The notes under the pieces were generated by a model. The model was not told the DNA's origin. It was given only the letters and a program-made list of their open reading frames with translations, and made no database searches. The position numbers and the translations under genes are program-made. This document shows, in pieces, positions 41,248 to 61,641 of a stretch of DNA of 64,000 bases. The stretch lies in NCBI RefSeq assembly GCF_013315695.1, contig NZ_CP054353.1. One strand, written 5' to 3'. Source of the stretch: Escherichia coli (GTDB taxonomy: Bacteria; Pseudomonadota; Gammaproteobacteria; Enterobacterales; Enterobacteriaceae). The first letter of the stretch is position 1, and each line of letters starts with the position of its first letter.

Positions 41248-41259
41248 TTGGTTTATATT

Positions 41260-41280
41260 GCTCCCCTGAAAATGGGGAGC
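41260..41280 (+). terminator. Stem-loop after argH (weak terminator candidate)
   Basis: gctcccc-tgaaaat-ggggagc hairpin directly after the argH stop; no strong T-run. Confidence 0.35.
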
Positions 41281-41732
41281 TTACCACGCCTATAAAGTAG
41301 CGACACTACGTAGGCGGACTGCCTCAGGCAGAAATTTGTCAGCATTCTGGTGACCTTAAATTTAACGCCCAACCAGAACTATTATTTGTCATATTCCTTT
41401 TTATTCTTGCATCTTCTTTACCTTCACTCTCCCCATGAAAATCATATTTTCAATACATCAATCAATACATATTTTAATTAATTGAATATAATTAATTTCT
41501 ATTGCTGTGCTCATTTTTAATGATTAATGGAGTTTGTTATGTGATTATTTAACGTGTTGTTTTAACGATGATGGTTAATTATTCAGGTGGTTTTTGAGGG
41601 TGTTTTTTCTCCTCGGCGGAAATTTTTATTTTTAATGTGATCACGGTTGAATAATCGCTCCTTCTCTCTTGTATGGTAGTAGGCGTAAAATTAAGTTTGA
41701 AGCGTCTATTTACAACACAGGAGATTGCAATA

Positions 41733-42947
41733 ATGAAAATTATTGCTGCAGATGTTTTTGTTACTTGCCCAGGACGTAATTTCGTTACGCTTAAAATAAC
41801 CACTGCAAGCGGACTTTGTGGATTGGGAGATGCCACATTAAATGGTCGCGAATTGTCGGTCGCTTCTTATCTGAAAGATCATCTTTGTCCACAATTAATT
41901 GGCCGCGATGCCAGCCGTATCGAAGATATCTGGCAATTCTTTTATAAAGGTGCTTACTGGCGACGTGGCCCCGTCACGATGTCGGCCATTTCTGCCATTG
42001 ATATGGCGTTGTGGGATATCAAAGCCAAAGCGGCAAATATGCCATTGTATCAACTGCTTGGTGGTGCTTCTCGTGAAGGCGTGATGGTTTATTGCCACAC
42101 CACCGGGCGCACGATTGATGAAGTCCTTGAAGACTATGCAAAGCACCAGCAGATGGGCTTTAAGGCGATTCGTGTGCAGTGCGGTGTACCGGGTATGCAA
42201 ACCACTTATGGCCTGGCGAAGGGCAAAGGACTGGCGTATGAACCGGCAACCAAAGGCCTGTGGCCGGAAGAGCAGTTGTGGTCTTCAGAAAAGTATCTCG
42301 ATTTTACACCGAAGTTATTTGAAGCGGTGCGTAATAAGTTCGGTTTTAACGAACATCTGTTGCATGACATGCACCATCGCCTGACTCCTATCGAAGCGGC
42401 GCGCTTTGGGAAGAGCATTGAGGATTACCGCCTGTTCTGGATGGAAGATCCGACGCCTGCTGAGAACCAGGAATGTTTTCGTCTGATTCGCCAGCATACT
42501 GTGACGCCGATTGCGGTCGGTGAAGTGTTTAACAGTATCTGGGACTGCAAGCAGTTAATCGAAGAGCAGCTGATTGACTATATTCGCACGACGATTACCC
42601 ATGCAGGCGGCATAACCGGGATGCGACGGATTGCCGATTTTGCATCGCTTTATCAGGTACGTACCGGTTCGCATGGCCCTTCAGATTTATCGCCTGTTTG
42701 TCATGCGGCGGCGCTGCATTTTGACCTCTGGGTGCCAAACTTTGGCGTTCAGGAGTACATGGGCTATTCCGAACAAATGCTTGAAGTCTTCCCGCATAGC
42801 TGGCGCTTCGATGAAGGTTATATGCACCCAGGCGATGAACCGGGGCTGGGTATTTCTTTCGATGAGAAACTGGCGGCGAAATATCCGTATGACCCGGCGT
42901 ATCTCCCCGTCGCACGACTGGAAGATGGCACATTGTGGAACTGGTAA
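41733..42947 (+). CDS. Enolase-superfamily sugar-acid dehydratase, RspA/ManD-like (D-mannonate/altronate dehydratase family), accessory
   Basis: ORF 41673..42947; start at ATG 41733 with AGGAG RBS 9 nt upstream; 404 aa [24 protein letters not shown]... closely resembles RspA as I recall it. Confidence 0.8.
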
Positions 42948-43013
42948 TAACAGTTCGCTTAATTATTTTCTGAATAGTCATCAAATCGATTAATTCCGCT
43001 CAAGGAGCTAAAA

Positions 43014-44297
43014 ATGGACGTTGATGTGTCAACCAGTGTTGCGGGTAATAAACCGCAACGGATTCGTCGTATTCAGACAGTAACGCTGGTTTTATTATTT
43101 ATGGCGGGGATCGTTAATTTCCTCGACCGTTCGTCATTGAGCGTGGCAGGCGAAGCGATTCGTGGCGAGTTAGGATTATCGGCGACAGAATTTGGCGTTT
43201 TGCTTTCTGCATTTTCTCTGTCTTATGGTTTTTCACAACTCCCTTCCGGTATTTTGCTAGACCGCTTTGGCCCACGAATAGTTTTAGGCGCAGGCTTAAT
43301 ATTCTGGTCATTAATGCAGGCATTAACAGGAATGGTTAATTCTTTTAGCCACTTTATTTTAATGCGTATCGGTCTGGGTATTGGCGAAGCGCCATTTATG
43401 CCTGCGGGAGTAAAATCGATCACCGACTGGTATGCGCAAAAAGAACGCGGCACGGCGCTGGGGATTTTTAACTCATCTACCGTTATCGGTCAGGCTATTG
43501 CGCCTCCTGCTCTTGTATTGATGCAGCTGGCATGGGGCTGGCGGGCAATGTTCGTCATCATCGGCGTGGCGGGGATTCTGGTTGGGATCTGTTGGTACGC
43601 GTGGTATCGCAACCGGGCGCAGTTTGTCCTGACCGACGAAGAACGGACCTATCTCTCCGCGCCGGTTAAACCGCGTCCACAATTACAATTTAGCGAGTGG
43701 CTGGCGCTGTTTAAGCATCGGACAACCTGGGGGATGATTTTAGGTTTCTCTGGCGTCAATTATACCGGTTGGCTCTACATCGCGTGGTTACCCGGTTATT
43801 TACAAGCCGAGCAAGGCTTCAGTCTGGCGAAAACCGGTTGGGTGGCGGCGATTCCTTTCCTCGCGGCGGCGGTCGGGATGTGGGTTAACGGTATTGTTGT
43901 CGATCGGCTGGCGAAAAAAGGCTACGACCTGGCGAAGACGCGTAAAACGGCTATTGTCTGCGGTTTGATGATGTCGGCATTAGGCACGTTGCTGGTCGTG
44001 CAATCCTCCTCGCCAGCCCAGGCTGTAGCGTTTATCTCAATGGCGCTGTTCTGCGTGCATTTCGCGGGAACATCTGCATGGGGACTGGTGCAGGTGATGG
44101 TGTCAGAAACAAAAGTGGCTTCCATCGCCGGGATTCAAAACTTTGGCAGTTTTGTTTTTGCTTCCTTTGCTCCGATCGTAACCGGTTGGGTAGTGGATAC
44201 CACGCACTCGTTTAATATGGCGCTGGTTATCGCGGCCTGTGTGACGTTCACCGGGGCGCTGTGTTACTTCTTTATTGTCAAAGATCGGATTGAGTAA
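43014..44297 (+). CDS. MFS transporter, probable hexuronate/aldonate (anion:cation symporter-like) permease, accessory
   Basis: 427-aa ORF with AGGAG RBS; about 12 predicted TM segments; MFS signature region GLGIGEAPFMPAGVKSITDW; 66 bp downstream of the dehydratase. Confidence 0.75.
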   Translation: MDVDVSTSVAGNKPQRIRRIQTVTLVLLFMAGIVNFLDRSSLSVAGEAIRGELGLSATEFGVLLSAFSLSYGFSQLPSGILLDRFGPRIVLGAGLIFWSLMQALTGMVNSFSHFILMRIGLGIGEAPFMPAGVKSITDWYAQKERGTALGIFNSSTVIGQAIAPPALVLMQLAWGWRAMFVIIGVAGILVGICWYAWYRNRAQFVLTDEERTYLSAPVKPRPQLQFSEWLALFKHRTTWGMILGFSGVNYTGWLYIAWLPGYLQAEQGFSLAKTGWVAAIPFLAAAVGMWVNGIVVDRLAKKGYDLAKTRKTAIVCGLMMSALGTLLVVQSSSPAQAVAFISMALFCVHFAGTSAWGLVQVMVSETKVASIAGIQNFGSFVFASFAPIVTGWVVDTTHSFNMALVIAACVTFTGALCYFFIVKDRIE

Positions 44298-44336
44298 CTG
44301 TTACTATCAGGCTCTCTTGCTGTGGGCCTGTAGAAT

Positions 44337-49330: not shown

Positions 49331-49454
49331 GATGTATCCTGAAAAATTAAAGTACGCGGCGATTGTAGGGATTGCTCATCAGATGTCCAGATCTTGATGA
49401 ATTCCTATTTGTGAGCTACGTCTGGACAGTAACTTGTTACAACCTGTAGCATCC

Positions 49455-49698
49455 ACTTGCCGGTCCTGTGAGTTAATAGGGAATCCAGTGCGAATCTGGA
49501 GCTGACGCGCAGCGGTAAGGAAAGGTGCGATGATTGCGTTATGCGGACACTGCCATCCGGTGGGAAGTCATCATCTCTTAGTATCTTAGATACCCCTCCA
49601 AGCCCGAAGACCTGCCGGCTAACGTCGCATCTGGTTCTCATCATCGCGTAATATTGATGAAACCTGCGGCATCCTTCTTCTATTGTGGATGCTTTACA
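49455..49698 (+). ncRNA. Cobalamin (B12) riboswitch in the btuB leader
   Basis: btuB 5' UTR contains gccggtcctgtgagttaatagggaatccagtgcgaatctggagctgacgcgcagcggtaaggaaaggtgcgatgattgcgttatgcggacactgccatccggtgggaagtcatcatctc, recognised as the btuB B12 element; 5' boundary approximate. Confidence 0.85.
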
Positions 49699-52718: not shown

Positions 52719-54260
<1,542 letters not shown>

Positions 54261-54345
54261 CCTTAAAGAAGCGTACTTTGAAGTGCTCACACAGATTGTC
54301 TGATAGAAAGTGAAAAGCAAGGCGTCTTGCGAAGCAGACTGATAC

Positions 54346-54421
54346 GTCCCCTTCGTCTAGAGGCCCAGGACACCGCCCTTTCACGGCGGTAACAGGGGTT
54401 CGAATCCCCTAGGGGACGCCA
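54346..54421 (+). tRNA. gltT: tRNA-Glu (anticodon UUC) in the 16S–23S spacer
   Basis: gtccccttcgtctagaggcccaggacaccgccctttcacggcggtaacaggggttcgaatcccctaggggacgcca; cloverleaf with TTC anticodon. Confidence 0.95.
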
Positions 54422-54615
54422 CTTGCTGGTTTGTGAGTGAAAGTCACCGACCTTAATATCGTTAAAGATGACTTACGAGTCATGTTTAAGATATTTGCTC
54501 TTTAAAAATCTGGATCAAGCTGAAAATTGAAACACTGAACAACGAAAGTTGTTCGTGAGTCTCTCAAATTTTCGCAACACGATGATGAGTCGAAAGAAAC
54601 ATCTTCGGGTTGTGA

Positions 54616-57519
<2,904 letters not shown>

Positions 57520-57613
57520 ACAACGCCGAAGATGTTTTGGCGGAAGAGACATCGATAAGTAAGCTTGATAACAGATTAAATCAGAACGCAGAAGTGGTCT
57601 GATAAACAGAATT

Positions 57614-57733
57614 TGCCTGGCGGCCTTAGCGCGGTGGTCCCACCTGACCCCATGCCGAACTCAGAAGTGAAACGCCGTAGCGCCGATGGTAGTGTGGGGT
57701 CTCCCCATGCGAGAGTAGGGAACTGCCAGGCAT
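57614..57733 (+). rRNA. rrfB: 5S ribosomal RNA
   Basis: tgcctggcggcc...gggaactgccaggcat; 120 nt. Confidence 0.97.
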
Positions 57734-57744
57734 CAAATTAAGCG

Positions 57745-57776
57745 AAAGGCCCAGTCGGAAGACTGGGCTTTTTTGC
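57745..57776 (+). terminator. rrn operon terminator (T1-like)
   Basis: aaaggcccagtc-ggaa-gactgggc hairpin followed by tttttt immediately after 5S. Confidence 0.8.
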
Positions 57777-57867
57777 GTTTCTATAAACTCTTCCTGTCAT
57801 CATATCTACAAGCCATCCCCCCACAGATACGGTAAACTAGCCTCGTTTTTGCATCAGGAAAGCAGCT

Positions 57868-58896
57868 ATGAACCACTCCTTAAAACCCTGGAACACATTT
57901 GGCATTGATCATAATGCTCAGCACATTGTATGTGCCGAAGACGAACAACAATTACTCAATGCCTGGCAGCATGCAACCGCAGAAGGACAACCCGTTCTTA
58001 TTCTGGGTGAAGGAAGTAATGTACTTTTTCTGGAGGACTATCGCGGCACGGTGATCATCAACCGGATCAAAGGTATCGAAATTCATGATGAACCTGATGC
58101 GTGGTATTTACATGTAGGAGCCGGAGAAAACTGGCATCGCCTGGTAAAATACACTTTGCAGGAAGGTATGCCTGGTCTGGAAAATCTGGCATTAATTCCT
58201 GGTTGTGTCGGCTCATCACCTATCCAGAATATTGGTGCTTATGGCGTAGAATTACAGCGAGTTTGCGCTTATGTTGATTGTGTTGAACTGGCGACAGGCA
58301 AGCAAGTACGCTTAACTGCCAAAGAGTGCCGTTTTGGCTATCGCGACAGTATTTTTAAACATGAATACCAGGATCGCTTCGCCATTGTAGCCGTAGGTCT
58401 GCGTCTGCCAAAAGAGTGGCAACCTGTACTAACGTATGGTGACTTAACTCGTCTGGATCCTACAACAGTAACGCCACAGCAAGTATTTGATGCGGTGTGT
58501 CATATGCGCACCACCAAACTCCCTGATCCAAAAGTGAACGGTAATGCGGGTAGTTTCTTCAAAAATCCTGTTGTTTCTGCCGAAACTGCTAACGCGTTGT
58601 TGGCGCAATTTCCAACAGCCCCACATTACCCCCAGGTGGATGGTTCAGTAAAACTGGCCGCGGGTTGGCTGATTGATCAGTGCCAGCTTAAAGGGACGCA
58701 AATTGGTGGGGCTGCGGTACACCGTCAACAGGCGCTGGTTCTCATAAATGAGCACGATGCAAAAAGCGAAGATGTTGTACAGCTGGCGCATCATGTAAGA
58801 CAAAAAGTGGGTGAAAAATTTAATGTCTGGCTTGAGCCTGAAGTCCGCTTTATTGGTGCATCAGGTGAAGTGAGCGCAGTGGAGACAATTTCATGA
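57868..58896 (+). CDS. murB: UDP-N-acetylenolpyruvoylglucosamine reductase
   Basis: 342-aa [24 protein letters not shown]; FAD-binding MurB family. Confidence 0.93.
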
Positions 58897-59858
58897 AGGA
58901 TAACACCGTGCCACTGAAATTGATCGCCCTGTTAGCGAACGGTGAATTTCACTCTGGCGAGCAGTTGGGTGAAACGCTGGGAATGAGCCGGGCGGCTATT
59001 AATAAACACATTCAGACACTGCGTGACTGGGGCGTTGATGTATTTACTGTTCCGGGTAAAGGATACAGCTTGCCCGAGCCAATCCAGTTACTTAATGCCG
59101 AAAAGATATTGAGTCAGCTGGATGACGGCAGTGTAGCCGTGCTGCCAGTTATTGACTCCACGAATCAGTATCTCCTGGACCGCATCGGAGAGCTTAAATC
59201 TGGCGATGCCTGTGTTGCAGAATACCAGCATGCTGGCCGTGGTCGTCGTGGTCGGAAATGGTTTTCGCCTTTTGGCGCGAACTTATATTTGTCGATGTTC
59301 TGGCGTCTGGAACAGGGCCCGGCGGCGGCGATTGGTTTAAGTCTGGTTATCGGTATCGTGATGGCGGAAGTATTACGCAAGCTGGGTGCAGATAAAGTTC
59401 GTGTTAAATGGCCTAATGACCTCTATCTGCAGGATCGTAAGCTGGCAGGCATTCTTGTGGAGCTGACTGGCAAAACCGGCGATGCGGCGCAAATAGTCAT
59501 TGGTGCAGGGATCAACATGGCAATGCGTCGTGTTGAAGAGAGTGTCGTTAATCAAGGGTGGATCACGCTGCAGGAAGCCGGGATCAATCTCGATCGTAAT
59601 ACTCTTGCGGCCATGCTGATACGTGAATTACGCGCGGCGCTGGAACTCTTCGAGCAAGAAGGATTGGCACCTTATCTTTCGCGCTGGGAAAAGTTGGATA
59701 ATTTTATTAATCGCCCAGTGAAACTTATCATTGGTGATAAAGAAATATTTGGCATTTCACGCGGAATAGACAAACAGGGTGCTTTATTACTTGAGCAGGA
59801 TGGAATAATAAAACCCTGGATGGGCGGTGAAATATCCCTGCGTAGTGCAGAAAAATAA
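58893..59858 (+). CDS. birA: Biotin--[acetyl-CoA-carboxylase] ligase / bio operon repressor
   Basis: 321-aa ORF with N-terminal HTH and biotin ligase motif GRGRRGRKW; ATG overlaps the murB stop. Confidence 0.93.
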
Positions 59859-61199: not shown

Positions 61200-61275
<76 letters not shown>

Positions 61276-61283
61276 TCAAGTCC

Positions 61284-61368
<85 letters not shown>

Positions 61369-61484
61369 ATTTCGGCCACGCGATGGCGTAGCCCGAGACG
61401 ATAAGTTCGCTTACCGGCTCGAATAAAGAGAGCTTCTCTCGATATTCAGTGCAGAATGAAAATCAGGTAGCCGAGTTCCAGGAT

Positions 61485-61559
<75 letters not shown>

Positions 61560-61565
61560 AGATGT

Positions 61566-61641
61566 GCTGATATAGCTCAGTTGGTAGAGCGCACCCTTGG
61601 TAAGGGTGAGGTCGGCAGTTCGAATCTGCCTATCAGCACCA
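61566..61641 (+). tRNA. thrT: tRNA-Thr (anticodon GGU)
   Basis: gctgatatagctcagttggtagagcgcacccttggtaagggtgaggtcggcagttcgaatctgcctatcagcacca. Confidence 0.95.

What the first reader, a model, noticed from the sequence alone, without database searches (positions are those of the whole stretch)
57614..57780. 5S rRNA and rrn terminator differ slightly from the K-12 rrnB sequences I recall
The 5S gene reads ggcggccttagcgcgg where I recall ggcggccgtagcgcgg (or gcagtagcgcgg in rrnB), and the post-5S terminator reads gcgaaaggcccagtcggaagactgggcttttttgcg rather than the K-12 rrnB T1 I recall. These are minor and suggest the window is from a non-K-12 Escherichia lineage or a different rrn allele. The comparison sequences come from memory, so this is low confidence.
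Basis: partly seen in the sequence, partly recalled or inferred. Interest (0 to 1): 0.15.

Follow-up and report, generated by a model that had tools for sequence, protein, structure and literature searches.

The report
Common non-K-12 rrnB 5S and terminator
This is the normal end of the E. coli rrnB ribosomal RNA operon in a strain that is not K-12: its 5S gene and its single terminator are common natural variants, so the finding is real but ordinary.

Summary
The window's 5S gene (57614-57733) has C12/U13. K-12 rrfB has A12/G13, and none of the eight K-12 5S genes has U13. After the 5S there is one intrinsic terminator: hairpin 57748-57769, then a T6 tract. K-12 rrnB instead has T1, a spacer, a partial 5S repeat and T2; that 172-nt cassette is absent here.

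Neither feature is unusual in E. coli. The U13 5S occurs in 4,178 of 5,426 complete genomes, with a median of 5 copies per genome that has it. This hairpin with the T2-type tail occurs in 2,930 genomes, including the type strain ATCC 11775. The K-12 tandem form occurs in 2,513. Kosakonia and Citrobacter amalonaticus have the same 5S, single terminator, murB layout.

The operon matches none of the seven K-12 operons. It combines blocks that K-12 carries in different operons (rrsC/D-type h6, rrsH-type h33, rrnC/E-type short ITS1) with 23S variants found in other E. coli. Flanking genes are 97.6% identical to K-12. The 361-nt stretch is identical only in strains MS 21-1 and MSB1_4I. The only rare element is a C-to-T change at 57769, at the base of the terminator stem.

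The parts
52719..54260 (+). 16S rRNA gene of the rrnB locus (context)
   Evidence: Rfam SSU_rRNA_bacteria, 1577 bits. It differs from the K-12 16S genes by 6-16 nt, and every variant is present in some K-12 copy.
54346..54421 (+). Spacer tRNA-Glu(UUC), as in K-12 rrnB (gltT)
   Evidence: ARAGORN. Identical to K-12 gltT, with 0 differences.
54616..57519 (+). 23S rRNA gene (context)
   Evidence: Rfam LSU_rRNA_bacteria, 2871 bits. It differs from the K-12 copies by 25-37 positions, clustered in variable helices.
57520..57613 (+). 23S-5S spacer (ITS2), mosaic. The 5' half matches the common non-K-12 allele and the 3' half is K-12-like.
   Evidence: Alignments A1 and A2. 82-83 matching columns out of 95-98 against every K-12 operon.
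57614..57733 (+). 5S rRNA gene (rrfB locus), 120 nt
   Evidence: Rfam RF00001, 93.2 bits, model positions 1-120. 119/120 identical to K-12 rrfC/D/G/H and 118/120 to rrfB.
57625..57626 (+).
   Evidence: positions; the structure line shows unpaired junction. A 45-mer centred on this site is found in 4,178 of 5,426 E. coli genomes.
57734..57747 (+). A/U-rich 3' trailer between the mature 5S end and the terminator stem. I infer this is the single-stranded segment used in 3' processing of the 5S precursor.
   Evidence: Sequence CAAATTAAGCGAAA. The processing role is inferred from what is established for the K-12 9S precursor and was not tested here.
57748..57769 (+). Terminator hairpin: 9-pair stem GGCCCAGTC/GACTGGGCT (the closing pair is G-U in RNA) with a GGAA loop at 57757-57760
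   Evidence: Terminator scan (core stem 57749-57768, 8 pairs, 6 G-C). RNA fold -23.7 kcal/mol, z = -4.6, and no shuffle folded as well.
57769..57774 (+). T6 tract of the terminator. T at 57769 replaces the C of the common allele, so the stem loses a G-C pair and the T run grows from 5 to 6.
   Evidence: Alignment A1. The exact 45-mer occurs in only 13 genomes. The common allele folds at -26.4 kcal/mol against -23.7 here.
57775..57867 (+). Interval between the terminator and murB. Blocks within it are conserved across genera (ACAAGC, CGGTAAACTA, TTTTGCATC), which suggests the murB promoter or leader.
   Evidence: Alignment A3 with Kosakonia, Citrobacter amalonaticus and RIT691. The simple scan found no consensus sigma-70 site.
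57868..58896 (+). murB (UDP-N-acetylenolpyruvoylglucosamine reductase), the next gene downstream
   Evidence: 342-aa ORF. Annotated as murB at the same position in MS 21-1 and K-12.

Best explanation
The region is the 3' end of the rrnB ribosomal RNA operon of an E. coli strain from a rarely sequenced, non-K-12 lineage. It holds a functional 5S rRNA gene carrying the widespread C12/U13 allele. One Rho-independent terminator follows, which stops the rrn transcript before murB. The differences from K-12 are standing polymorphism. U13 lies in the unpaired three-way junction (loop A), so it breaks no base pair. The terminator is the single form of a two-form polymorphism at the rrnB-murB junction. 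K-12 has the other form, a T1-spacer-partial-5S-T2 cassette that it also carries at rrnA and rrnD. Inferred mechanism: the elongating polymerase transcribes the GC-rich hairpin and the U6 tract and releases the transcript. The precursor is then trimmed to mature 5S at the A/U-rich segments on either side. The mosaic make-up of the whole operon fits concerted evolution by gene conversion between rrn operons. What is shown here: the sequence features, the structure prediction, the synteny and the population frequencies. What is inferred: termination activity, processing, and gene conversion as the cause of the mosaic.
For: A full-length 5S covariance-model match, with positions 12-13 in the unpaired junction. 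The hairpin plus T tract. The rrnB synteny. The U13 45-mer occurs in 4,178/5,426 genomes, 18,950 places, median 5 per genome, against 43,472 places for the whole 5S-containing query. The common form of this terminator occurs in 2,930 genomes, including ATCC 11775. The K-12 tandem interval occurs at full length in 2,513. The two counts together roughly equal the whole collection. Kosakonia oryzendophytica and Citrobacter amalonaticus have the same hairpin and tail between 5S and murB. K-12 rrnA, rrnB and rrnD share the tandem cassette up to GGCCTTTTTGC. The 16S combines the rrsC/D-type h6 patch with the rrsH-type h33 patch, and ITS1 is the rrnC/E type. The 23S patches absent from K-12 occur in 825 and 365 other E. 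coli genomes. The sequence is 100% identical in two independent complete assemblies.
Against: Nothing contradicts this reading. Its limits are as follows. Termination efficiency and 5S function were not measured. The genome collection is biased towards clinical lineages, so the percentages describe the database and not the species. The 45-mer counts detect sequence presence, not locus, although the terminator has a median of one place per genome. Which terminator form is ancestral is not settled, because RIT691 shows a tandem form outside Escherichia.
Confidence: 0.93

Rival explanations
1. The single terminator is a deletion derivative. On this view an ancestor of these E. coli lineages had the tandem T1-T2 cassette and lost it by recombination, either between the 5S 3' end and its partial repeat before T2, or at the GGCCTTT microhomology shared by T1 and T2.
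For: K-12 has a direct repeat of AACTGCCAGGCATCAAAT at the 5S end and again just before T2. The window's hairpin body resembles T1, while its tail and downstream DNA are those of T2, as a T1/T2 crossover would produce. RIT691, outside Escherichia, has a tandem form.
Against: Kosakonia and Citrobacter amalonaticus have the same single hairpin and tail directly before murB. The single form is therefore at least as old as the genus split, or it has arisen repeatedly. The tandem cassette is shared with rrnA and rrnD in K-12, so it could equally have been copied into rrnB by gene conversion. The direction cannot be decided from these data.
Confidence: 0.3
2. The window comes from a different Escherichia species or a cryptic clade rather than from E. 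coli proper.
For: Only 5 of 5,426 genomes match 24 kb of flanking genes at 99% or better, and all the others are about 97.2-97.6% regardless of background. The murB-containing block downstream of the terminator is only 95.2% identical to K-12.
Against: 97.64% identity to K-12 over 33 kb lies within the usual species range. The identical records are deposited as E. coli. Gene order is that of K-12. Each rrn variant is shared with hundreds to thousands of E. coli genomes. The phylogroup or clade was not determined.
Confidence: 0.1
3. The differences are assembly or sequencing artefacts, such as a chimeric collapse of rrn repeats.
For: rrn operons are repeats that assemblers can mix, and this operon is a mosaic of K-12 operon types.
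Against: The 361-nt stretch is identical in two independent complete genomes and differs by one base in a third. Every component variant recurs in many genomes. The locus-specific flanks are intact on both sides.
Confidence: 0.02
4. The variants are functionally specialised. On this view the single, slightly weakened terminator lets rrn transcription read into murB-birA, or U13 5S marks a specialised ribosome pool.
For: The simple scan found no consensus sigma-70 promoter between the terminator and murB. The C-to-T change costs about 2.7 kcal/mol of predicted stability. Published work argues that rrsH-type 16S variants affect stress responses (PMC6312700).
Against: The hairpin and U tract remain canonical, and the U run is longer. 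U13 is unpaired and is present in 77% of genomes alongside other alleles. No expression data were examined.
Confidence: 0.05

Closest known systems
E. coli K-12 rrnB terminator T1
   Same: The same hairpin family directly after the 5S gene: GGCyCAGTCGrAAGACTGGGCC preceded by CGAAA.
   Different: The window has C instead of T in the 5' arm, a GGAA loop instead of GAAA, and T instead of C at the last stem position. Its tail is TTTTTTGCGTTTCTA, not TTTCGTTTTATCTG. K-12 T1 folds far more stably (-32.6 against -23.7 kcal/mol) because its A tract and U tract pair perfectly.
E. coli K-12 rrnB terminator T2
   Same: The same flanks (ATCAAATTAAGC before the stem, TTTTTGCGTTTCTA after it), the same downstream DNA to murB and a similar predicted stability (-22.7 kcal/mol).
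   Different: The hairpin body differs: GGCCATCCTGACGGATGGCC in K-12, the type that K-12 rrnG also has. In K-12, T2 follows T1, a spacer and a partial 5S repeat, all of which are absent here.
Common single rrnB terminator of non-K-12 E. coli (for example the type strain ATCC 11775, or GmM077)
   Same: The same architecture and sequence: 5S, one hairpin, T tract, murB.
   Different: One base differs in the terminator (C to T at 57769) and one further downstream (G to A at 57791). The 3' half of the 23S-5S spacer also differs.
K-12 5S genes rrfC, rrfD, rrfG and rrfH
   Same: 119 of 120 positions are identical, with the same C12.
   Different: G13 in K-12 against U13 here. From memory, a G13/U13 heterogeneity was reported for strain MRE600 in the original 5S sequencing by Brownlee, Sanger and Barrell. 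I could not confirm this with the library or the genome collection.
rrnB-murB junction of Kosakonia oryzendophytica and Citrobacter amalonaticus
   Same: 5S, a single hairpin GGCCCAGTCGGAAGACTGGGCC, TTTTTGCG, then murB.
   Different: They have C at the position of 57769. Their intergenic DNA before murB has diverged apart from short conserved blocks.

Membership tests
5S ribosomal RNA (Rfam RF00001) | The sequence and secondary structure match the covariance model above the gathering score over its full length. | tested here: met
   93.2 bits against a gathering score of 38, model positions 1-120, not truncated.
5S ribosomal RNA (Rfam RF00001) | The gene lies at the distal end of an rrn operon, after the 23S. 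| tested here: met
   The 23S ends at 57519 and the 5S starts at 57614, on the same strand.
5S ribosomal RNA (Rfam RF00001) | The RNA is incorporated into 50S subunits. | not testable with these tools
   Indirect only: the allele is present in 77% of complete E. coli genomes, usually in several copies.
Intrinsic (Rho-independent) terminator | A G+C-rich hairpin with a short loop. | tested here: met
   8 core pairs with 6 G-C, and a 4-nt loop. Fold -23.7 kcal/mol, z = -4.6.
Intrinsic (Rho-independent) terminator | A run of T immediately after the stem. | tested here: met
   TTTTTT at 57769-57774.
Intrinsic (Rho-independent) terminator | Measured transcript release at the site. | not testable with these tools
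   No transcript data were available.
K-12-type tandem rrnB T1-T2 cassette | A T1 hairpin with the TTTCGTTTTATCTG tail, followed by the spacer of about 110 nt. | tested here: not met
   A 172-nt gap in the window relative to K-12 rrnB. The cassette is also absent in the alignment with K-12 rrnA, rrnB and rrnD.
K-12-type tandem rrnB T1-T2 cassette | A partial repeat of the 5S 3' end followed by the T2 hairpin GGCCATCCTGACGGATGGCC. | tested here: not met
   Neither is present in the window between the 5S and murB.
rrnB locus (as opposed to another rrn operon) | btuB and murI upstream, a tRNA-Glu spacer, and murB then the thrU-tyrU-glyT-thrT tRNA cluster downstream. | tested here: met
   Cobalamin riboswitch at 49444 and tRNA-Glu at 54346. 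tRNA-Thr/Tyr/Gly/Thr at 61200-61641. murB follows the 5S in K-12 and MS 21-1. The window is colinear with K-12 from about 16 kb to the 16S start, apart from one accessory insert at 41248-44336.

The most novel reading that the evidence does not exclude
E. coli is split roughly in half between a single and a tandem terminator at the end of rrnB, one of the most heavily transcribed operons in the cell. No consensus promoter was detected in the 93 nt before murB. If read-through differs between the two forms, and with the rare C-to-T stem variant seen here, strains would differ in how strongly murB-birA expression is coupled to rRNA synthesis and growth rate.
Probability: 0.05. Interest if true: 0.3.

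Novelty: already known. Interest (0 to 1): 0.07.

Why it matters
It matters little for biology. Two practical points follow. First, K-12 is not representative of the species at this locus. The rrnB T1-T2 cassette widely used in cloning vectors is present at rrnB in only about 46% of complete E. coli genomes, and K-12 lacks the 5S allele found in 77% of those genomes. Second, rrn operons at the same chromosomal locus carry different combinations of variable blocks in different strains. In this window the rrsH-type helix 33 sits in the rrnB operon, so work on operon-specific ribosome heterogeneity cannot transfer K-12 operon labels to other strains.

Tried and rejected
I searched the literature for the historical G13/U13 5S heterogeneity. 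Searches returned nothing relevant, and searches failed on term length. The MRE600 genome paper discusses only 16S. I tried to fetch the MRE600 genome as NZ_CP014197.1, but it is not in the collection, so the MRE600 link rests on memory only. A search for the phylogroup of strain MS 21-1 found no paper naming it. The promoter scan of 57400-58100 found no site, so the murB promoter was not located. The terminator scan reported the hairpin only on the minus strand, because the plus-strand stem/T-tract boundary falls on the G-U pair. The plus-strand terminator was therefore established by reading the sequence and by folding. ORFs overlapping the 5S gene and terminator are 25-42 aa and lie inside an rRNA gene, so I treated them as spurious. 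The single genome-contig scan used an exact pattern, so it found only species whose representative genome has exactly this hairpin and tail. It cannot show absence elsewhere. I considered a simple deletion between the two 5S-end repeats of K-12 as the origin of the single form. This was not accepted as shown, because it would leave the K-12 T2 hairpin, which the window does not have.

Full report
WHAT IS THERE. Window 57614-57780 is the end of a ribosomal RNA operon. Rfam finds 16S at 52719-54260, 23S at 54616-57519 and 5S at 57616-57731 on the + strand. ARAGORN finds tRNA-Glu(UUC) at 54346-54421 in the spacer. Upstream lie the cobalamin riboswitch of btuB (49444-49633) and OxyS. Downstream lie an ORF starting at 57868, annotated as murB in matching genomes, and the tRNA-Thr/Tyr/Gly/Thr cluster at 61200-61641. 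This is the gene order of K-12 around rrnB, so the operon is rrnB.

CHECK OF THE OBSERVATION. Both quoted strings are in the sequence. By K-12 numbering the 5S gene is 57614-57733. It differs from K-12 rrfB at positions 12 (C for A, 57625) and 13 (T for G, 57626) and nowhere else. None has T13.

K-12 rrnB has T1, a spacer, an 18-nt repeat of the 5S 3' end and T2. The window has one hairpin and lacks 172 nt of that arrangement.

ANATOMY OF THE TERMINATOR.
- After the 5S end comes an A/U-rich trailer (57734-57747).
- The stem is GGCCCAGTC/GACTGGGCT with a GGAA loop (57748-57769), followed by T6 (57769-57774), then GCGTTT.
- The scan tool finds the 8-pair core with 6 G-C pairs.
- As RNA, the 54-nt segment folds at -23.7 kcal/mol. 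Shuffles average -10.4, z = -4.6, and none of 200 shuffles folds as well.
- For comparison: the common allele folds at -26.4, K-12 T2 at -22.7 and K-12 T1 at -32.6 kcal/mol.
- The hairpin body is of the T1 type. The 5' flank (ATTAAGC), the tail (TTTTTGCGTTTCTA) and everything down to murB match the T2 side of K-12.

HOW COMMON IT IS. I used 45-nt queries centred on the variant base, so that a central mismatch leaves no 28-nt seed for megablast.
- The U13 5S is found in 4,178 of 5,426 complete E. coli genomes: 18,950 places, median 5 per genome that has it. The 361-nt query that contains the 5S gives 43,472 places in total.
- The common form of the window's terminator (C at 57769) is found in 2,930 genomes, including the type strain ATCC 11775, with a median of one place per genome.
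- The K-12 rrfB-murB interval is present at full length in 2,513 genomes.
- The two terminator forms therefore split the collection about 54/46.
- The exact window terminator, with T at 57769, is rare: 13 genomes match the 45-mer perfectly and 66 cover at least 80% of it.
- The whole 361-nt stretch is identical only in MS 21-1 and MSB1_4I, and one base different in a third genome.
- These figures describe a clinically biased database, not the species as a whole.

OUTSIDE E. COLI. One exact-pattern scan of representative genomes found the hairpin with the T2-type tail in six loci from five genomes. In Kosakonia oryzendophytica and Citrobacter amalonaticus it stands alone between a 5S gene and murB. 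In Enterobacteriaceae bacterium RIT691 it occupies the T2 position, after a K-12-like spacer and partial 5S repeat. In K-12, the T1-spacer-partial-5S-T2 cassette is shared by rrnA, rrnB and the rrfF end of rrnD up to GGCCTTTTTGC, after which each locus diverges. The tandem terminator is thus a module shared between operons. Its presence or absence at rrnB is an old polymorphism, and which form is ancestral is not settled.

- The 16S differs from each K-12 copy by 6-16 nt, and no variant is unique to the window.
- The helix-6 patch (52797-52811) is that of rrsC and rrsD.
- The helix-33 patch (53720-53756) is that of rrsH.
- The 23S differs by 25-37 positions, with 18 columns found in no K-12 copy. 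These cluster at 55156-55166, 56484-56487, 56778-56830 and 57408-57418.
- Two of those patches occur in 825 and 365 other E. coli genomes, usually in several copies.
- ITS1 is 355 nt, the rrnC/E type (340 of 356 columns match), not the 440-nt K-12 rrnB type.
- The 23S-5S spacer matches no K-12 operon in its 5' half. In its 3' half it is K-12-like and differs from the common non-K-12 allele.
- A mosaic of this kind is what gene conversion between rrn operons would produce. That is an inference, not something shown here.

LINEAGE. 33 kb of flanking genes are 97.64% identical to K-12. A 24-kb stretch is 100% identical to MSB1_4I. Only 5 records reach 99%, and the other listed genomes that cover most of it are 96.6-98.5% identical, mostly 97.2-97.7%. 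The strain is labelled E. coli and is colinear with K-12, but it belongs to a rarely sequenced lineage. Its phylogroup was not determined.

HOW IT WORKS. U13 and C12 lie in the unpaired three-way junction of 5S rRNA, so the fold is unchanged. The allele's frequency argues that it is functional. The hairpin and U tract have all the sequence features of an intrinsic terminator. From established knowledge, the rrn antitermination system suppresses Rho-dependent but not intrinsic termination, so a hairpin terminator is what ends these operons. The C-to-T change at 57769 turns a G-C pair into G-U, costs about 2.7 kcal/mol and lengthens the U run from 5 to 6. Its net effect on termination is unknown. 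Processing of the precursor at the A/U-rich flanks is inferred from the K-12 9S RNA model.

LITERATURE. The held library has nothing on a single/tandem rrnB terminator polymorphism. One paper places murB, birA and coaA as an insertion between the ancient rrnB and tufB operons in enterobacteria (PMC6735719). Others describe the rrsH helix-33 variant and its presence in MRE600 (PMC4825418 and PMC6312700). My recollection that a G13/U13 5S heterogeneity was reported for MRE600 in the 1960s could not be checked.

VERDICT. This is ordinary allelic variation in a well-known gene and a well-known type of terminator, already present in annotated public genomes. Interest is low.

Noticed in passing
window 53720-53756 and 52797-52811: The 16S gene at the rrnB locus carries the nine-position helix-33 patch that marks rrsH in K-12. 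It also carries the helix-6 patch of rrsC/rrsD. K-12 operon labels for 16S variants therefore do not transfer to this strain.
   Followed up: yes
window 55156-55166, 56484-56487, 56778-56830, 57408-57418: The 23S has 18 alignment columns found in none of the seven K-12 23S genes, clustered in four short patches. The first and last patches occur in 825 and 365 other E. coli genomes. I did not test whether the changes are compensatory within helices.
   Followed up: partly
window 54261-54615: The 16S-23S spacer is the short 355-nt tRNA-Glu type of K-12 rrnC/rrnE, not the 440-nt type that K-12 has at rrnB.
   Followed up: yes
window 57520-57613: The 23S-5S spacer is a mosaic. Its 5' half matches the common non-K-12 allele and no K-12 operon. 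Its 3' half is K-12-like and differs from that common allele. The donor operon was not identified.
   Followed up: partly
window 41248-44336: About 3.1 kb lies between argH and oxyS that K-12 lacks. It holds two genes: an enolase-superfamily protein annotated as D-mannonate dehydratase ManD (41673-42947) and an MFS transporter (43014-44297). The insert is present in 1,860 of 5,426 E. coli genomes.
   Followed up: yes
window 57775-57867: Short blocks between the terminator and murB are conserved from E. coli to Kosakonia and Citrobacter (ACAAGC, CGGTAAACTA, TTTTGCATC). The simple scan found no consensus sigma-70 promoter there, so the murB promoter is not located.
   Followed up: no
window 57821-59311: The blastn block that runs from the terminator-murB interval through murB into birA is only 95.2% identical to K-12, whereas the upstream flank is 97.6%. 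This may be a locally more divergent or recombined segment.
   Followed up: no
L018 (E. coli O111:H8 05-3004), 283-700: This strain has the tandem terminator at rrnB. Its 5S ends CCAGACATC as K-12 rrfF does, and its T1 region diverges from K-12 (96% over the interval). That looks like another product of exchange between operons.
   Followed up: no
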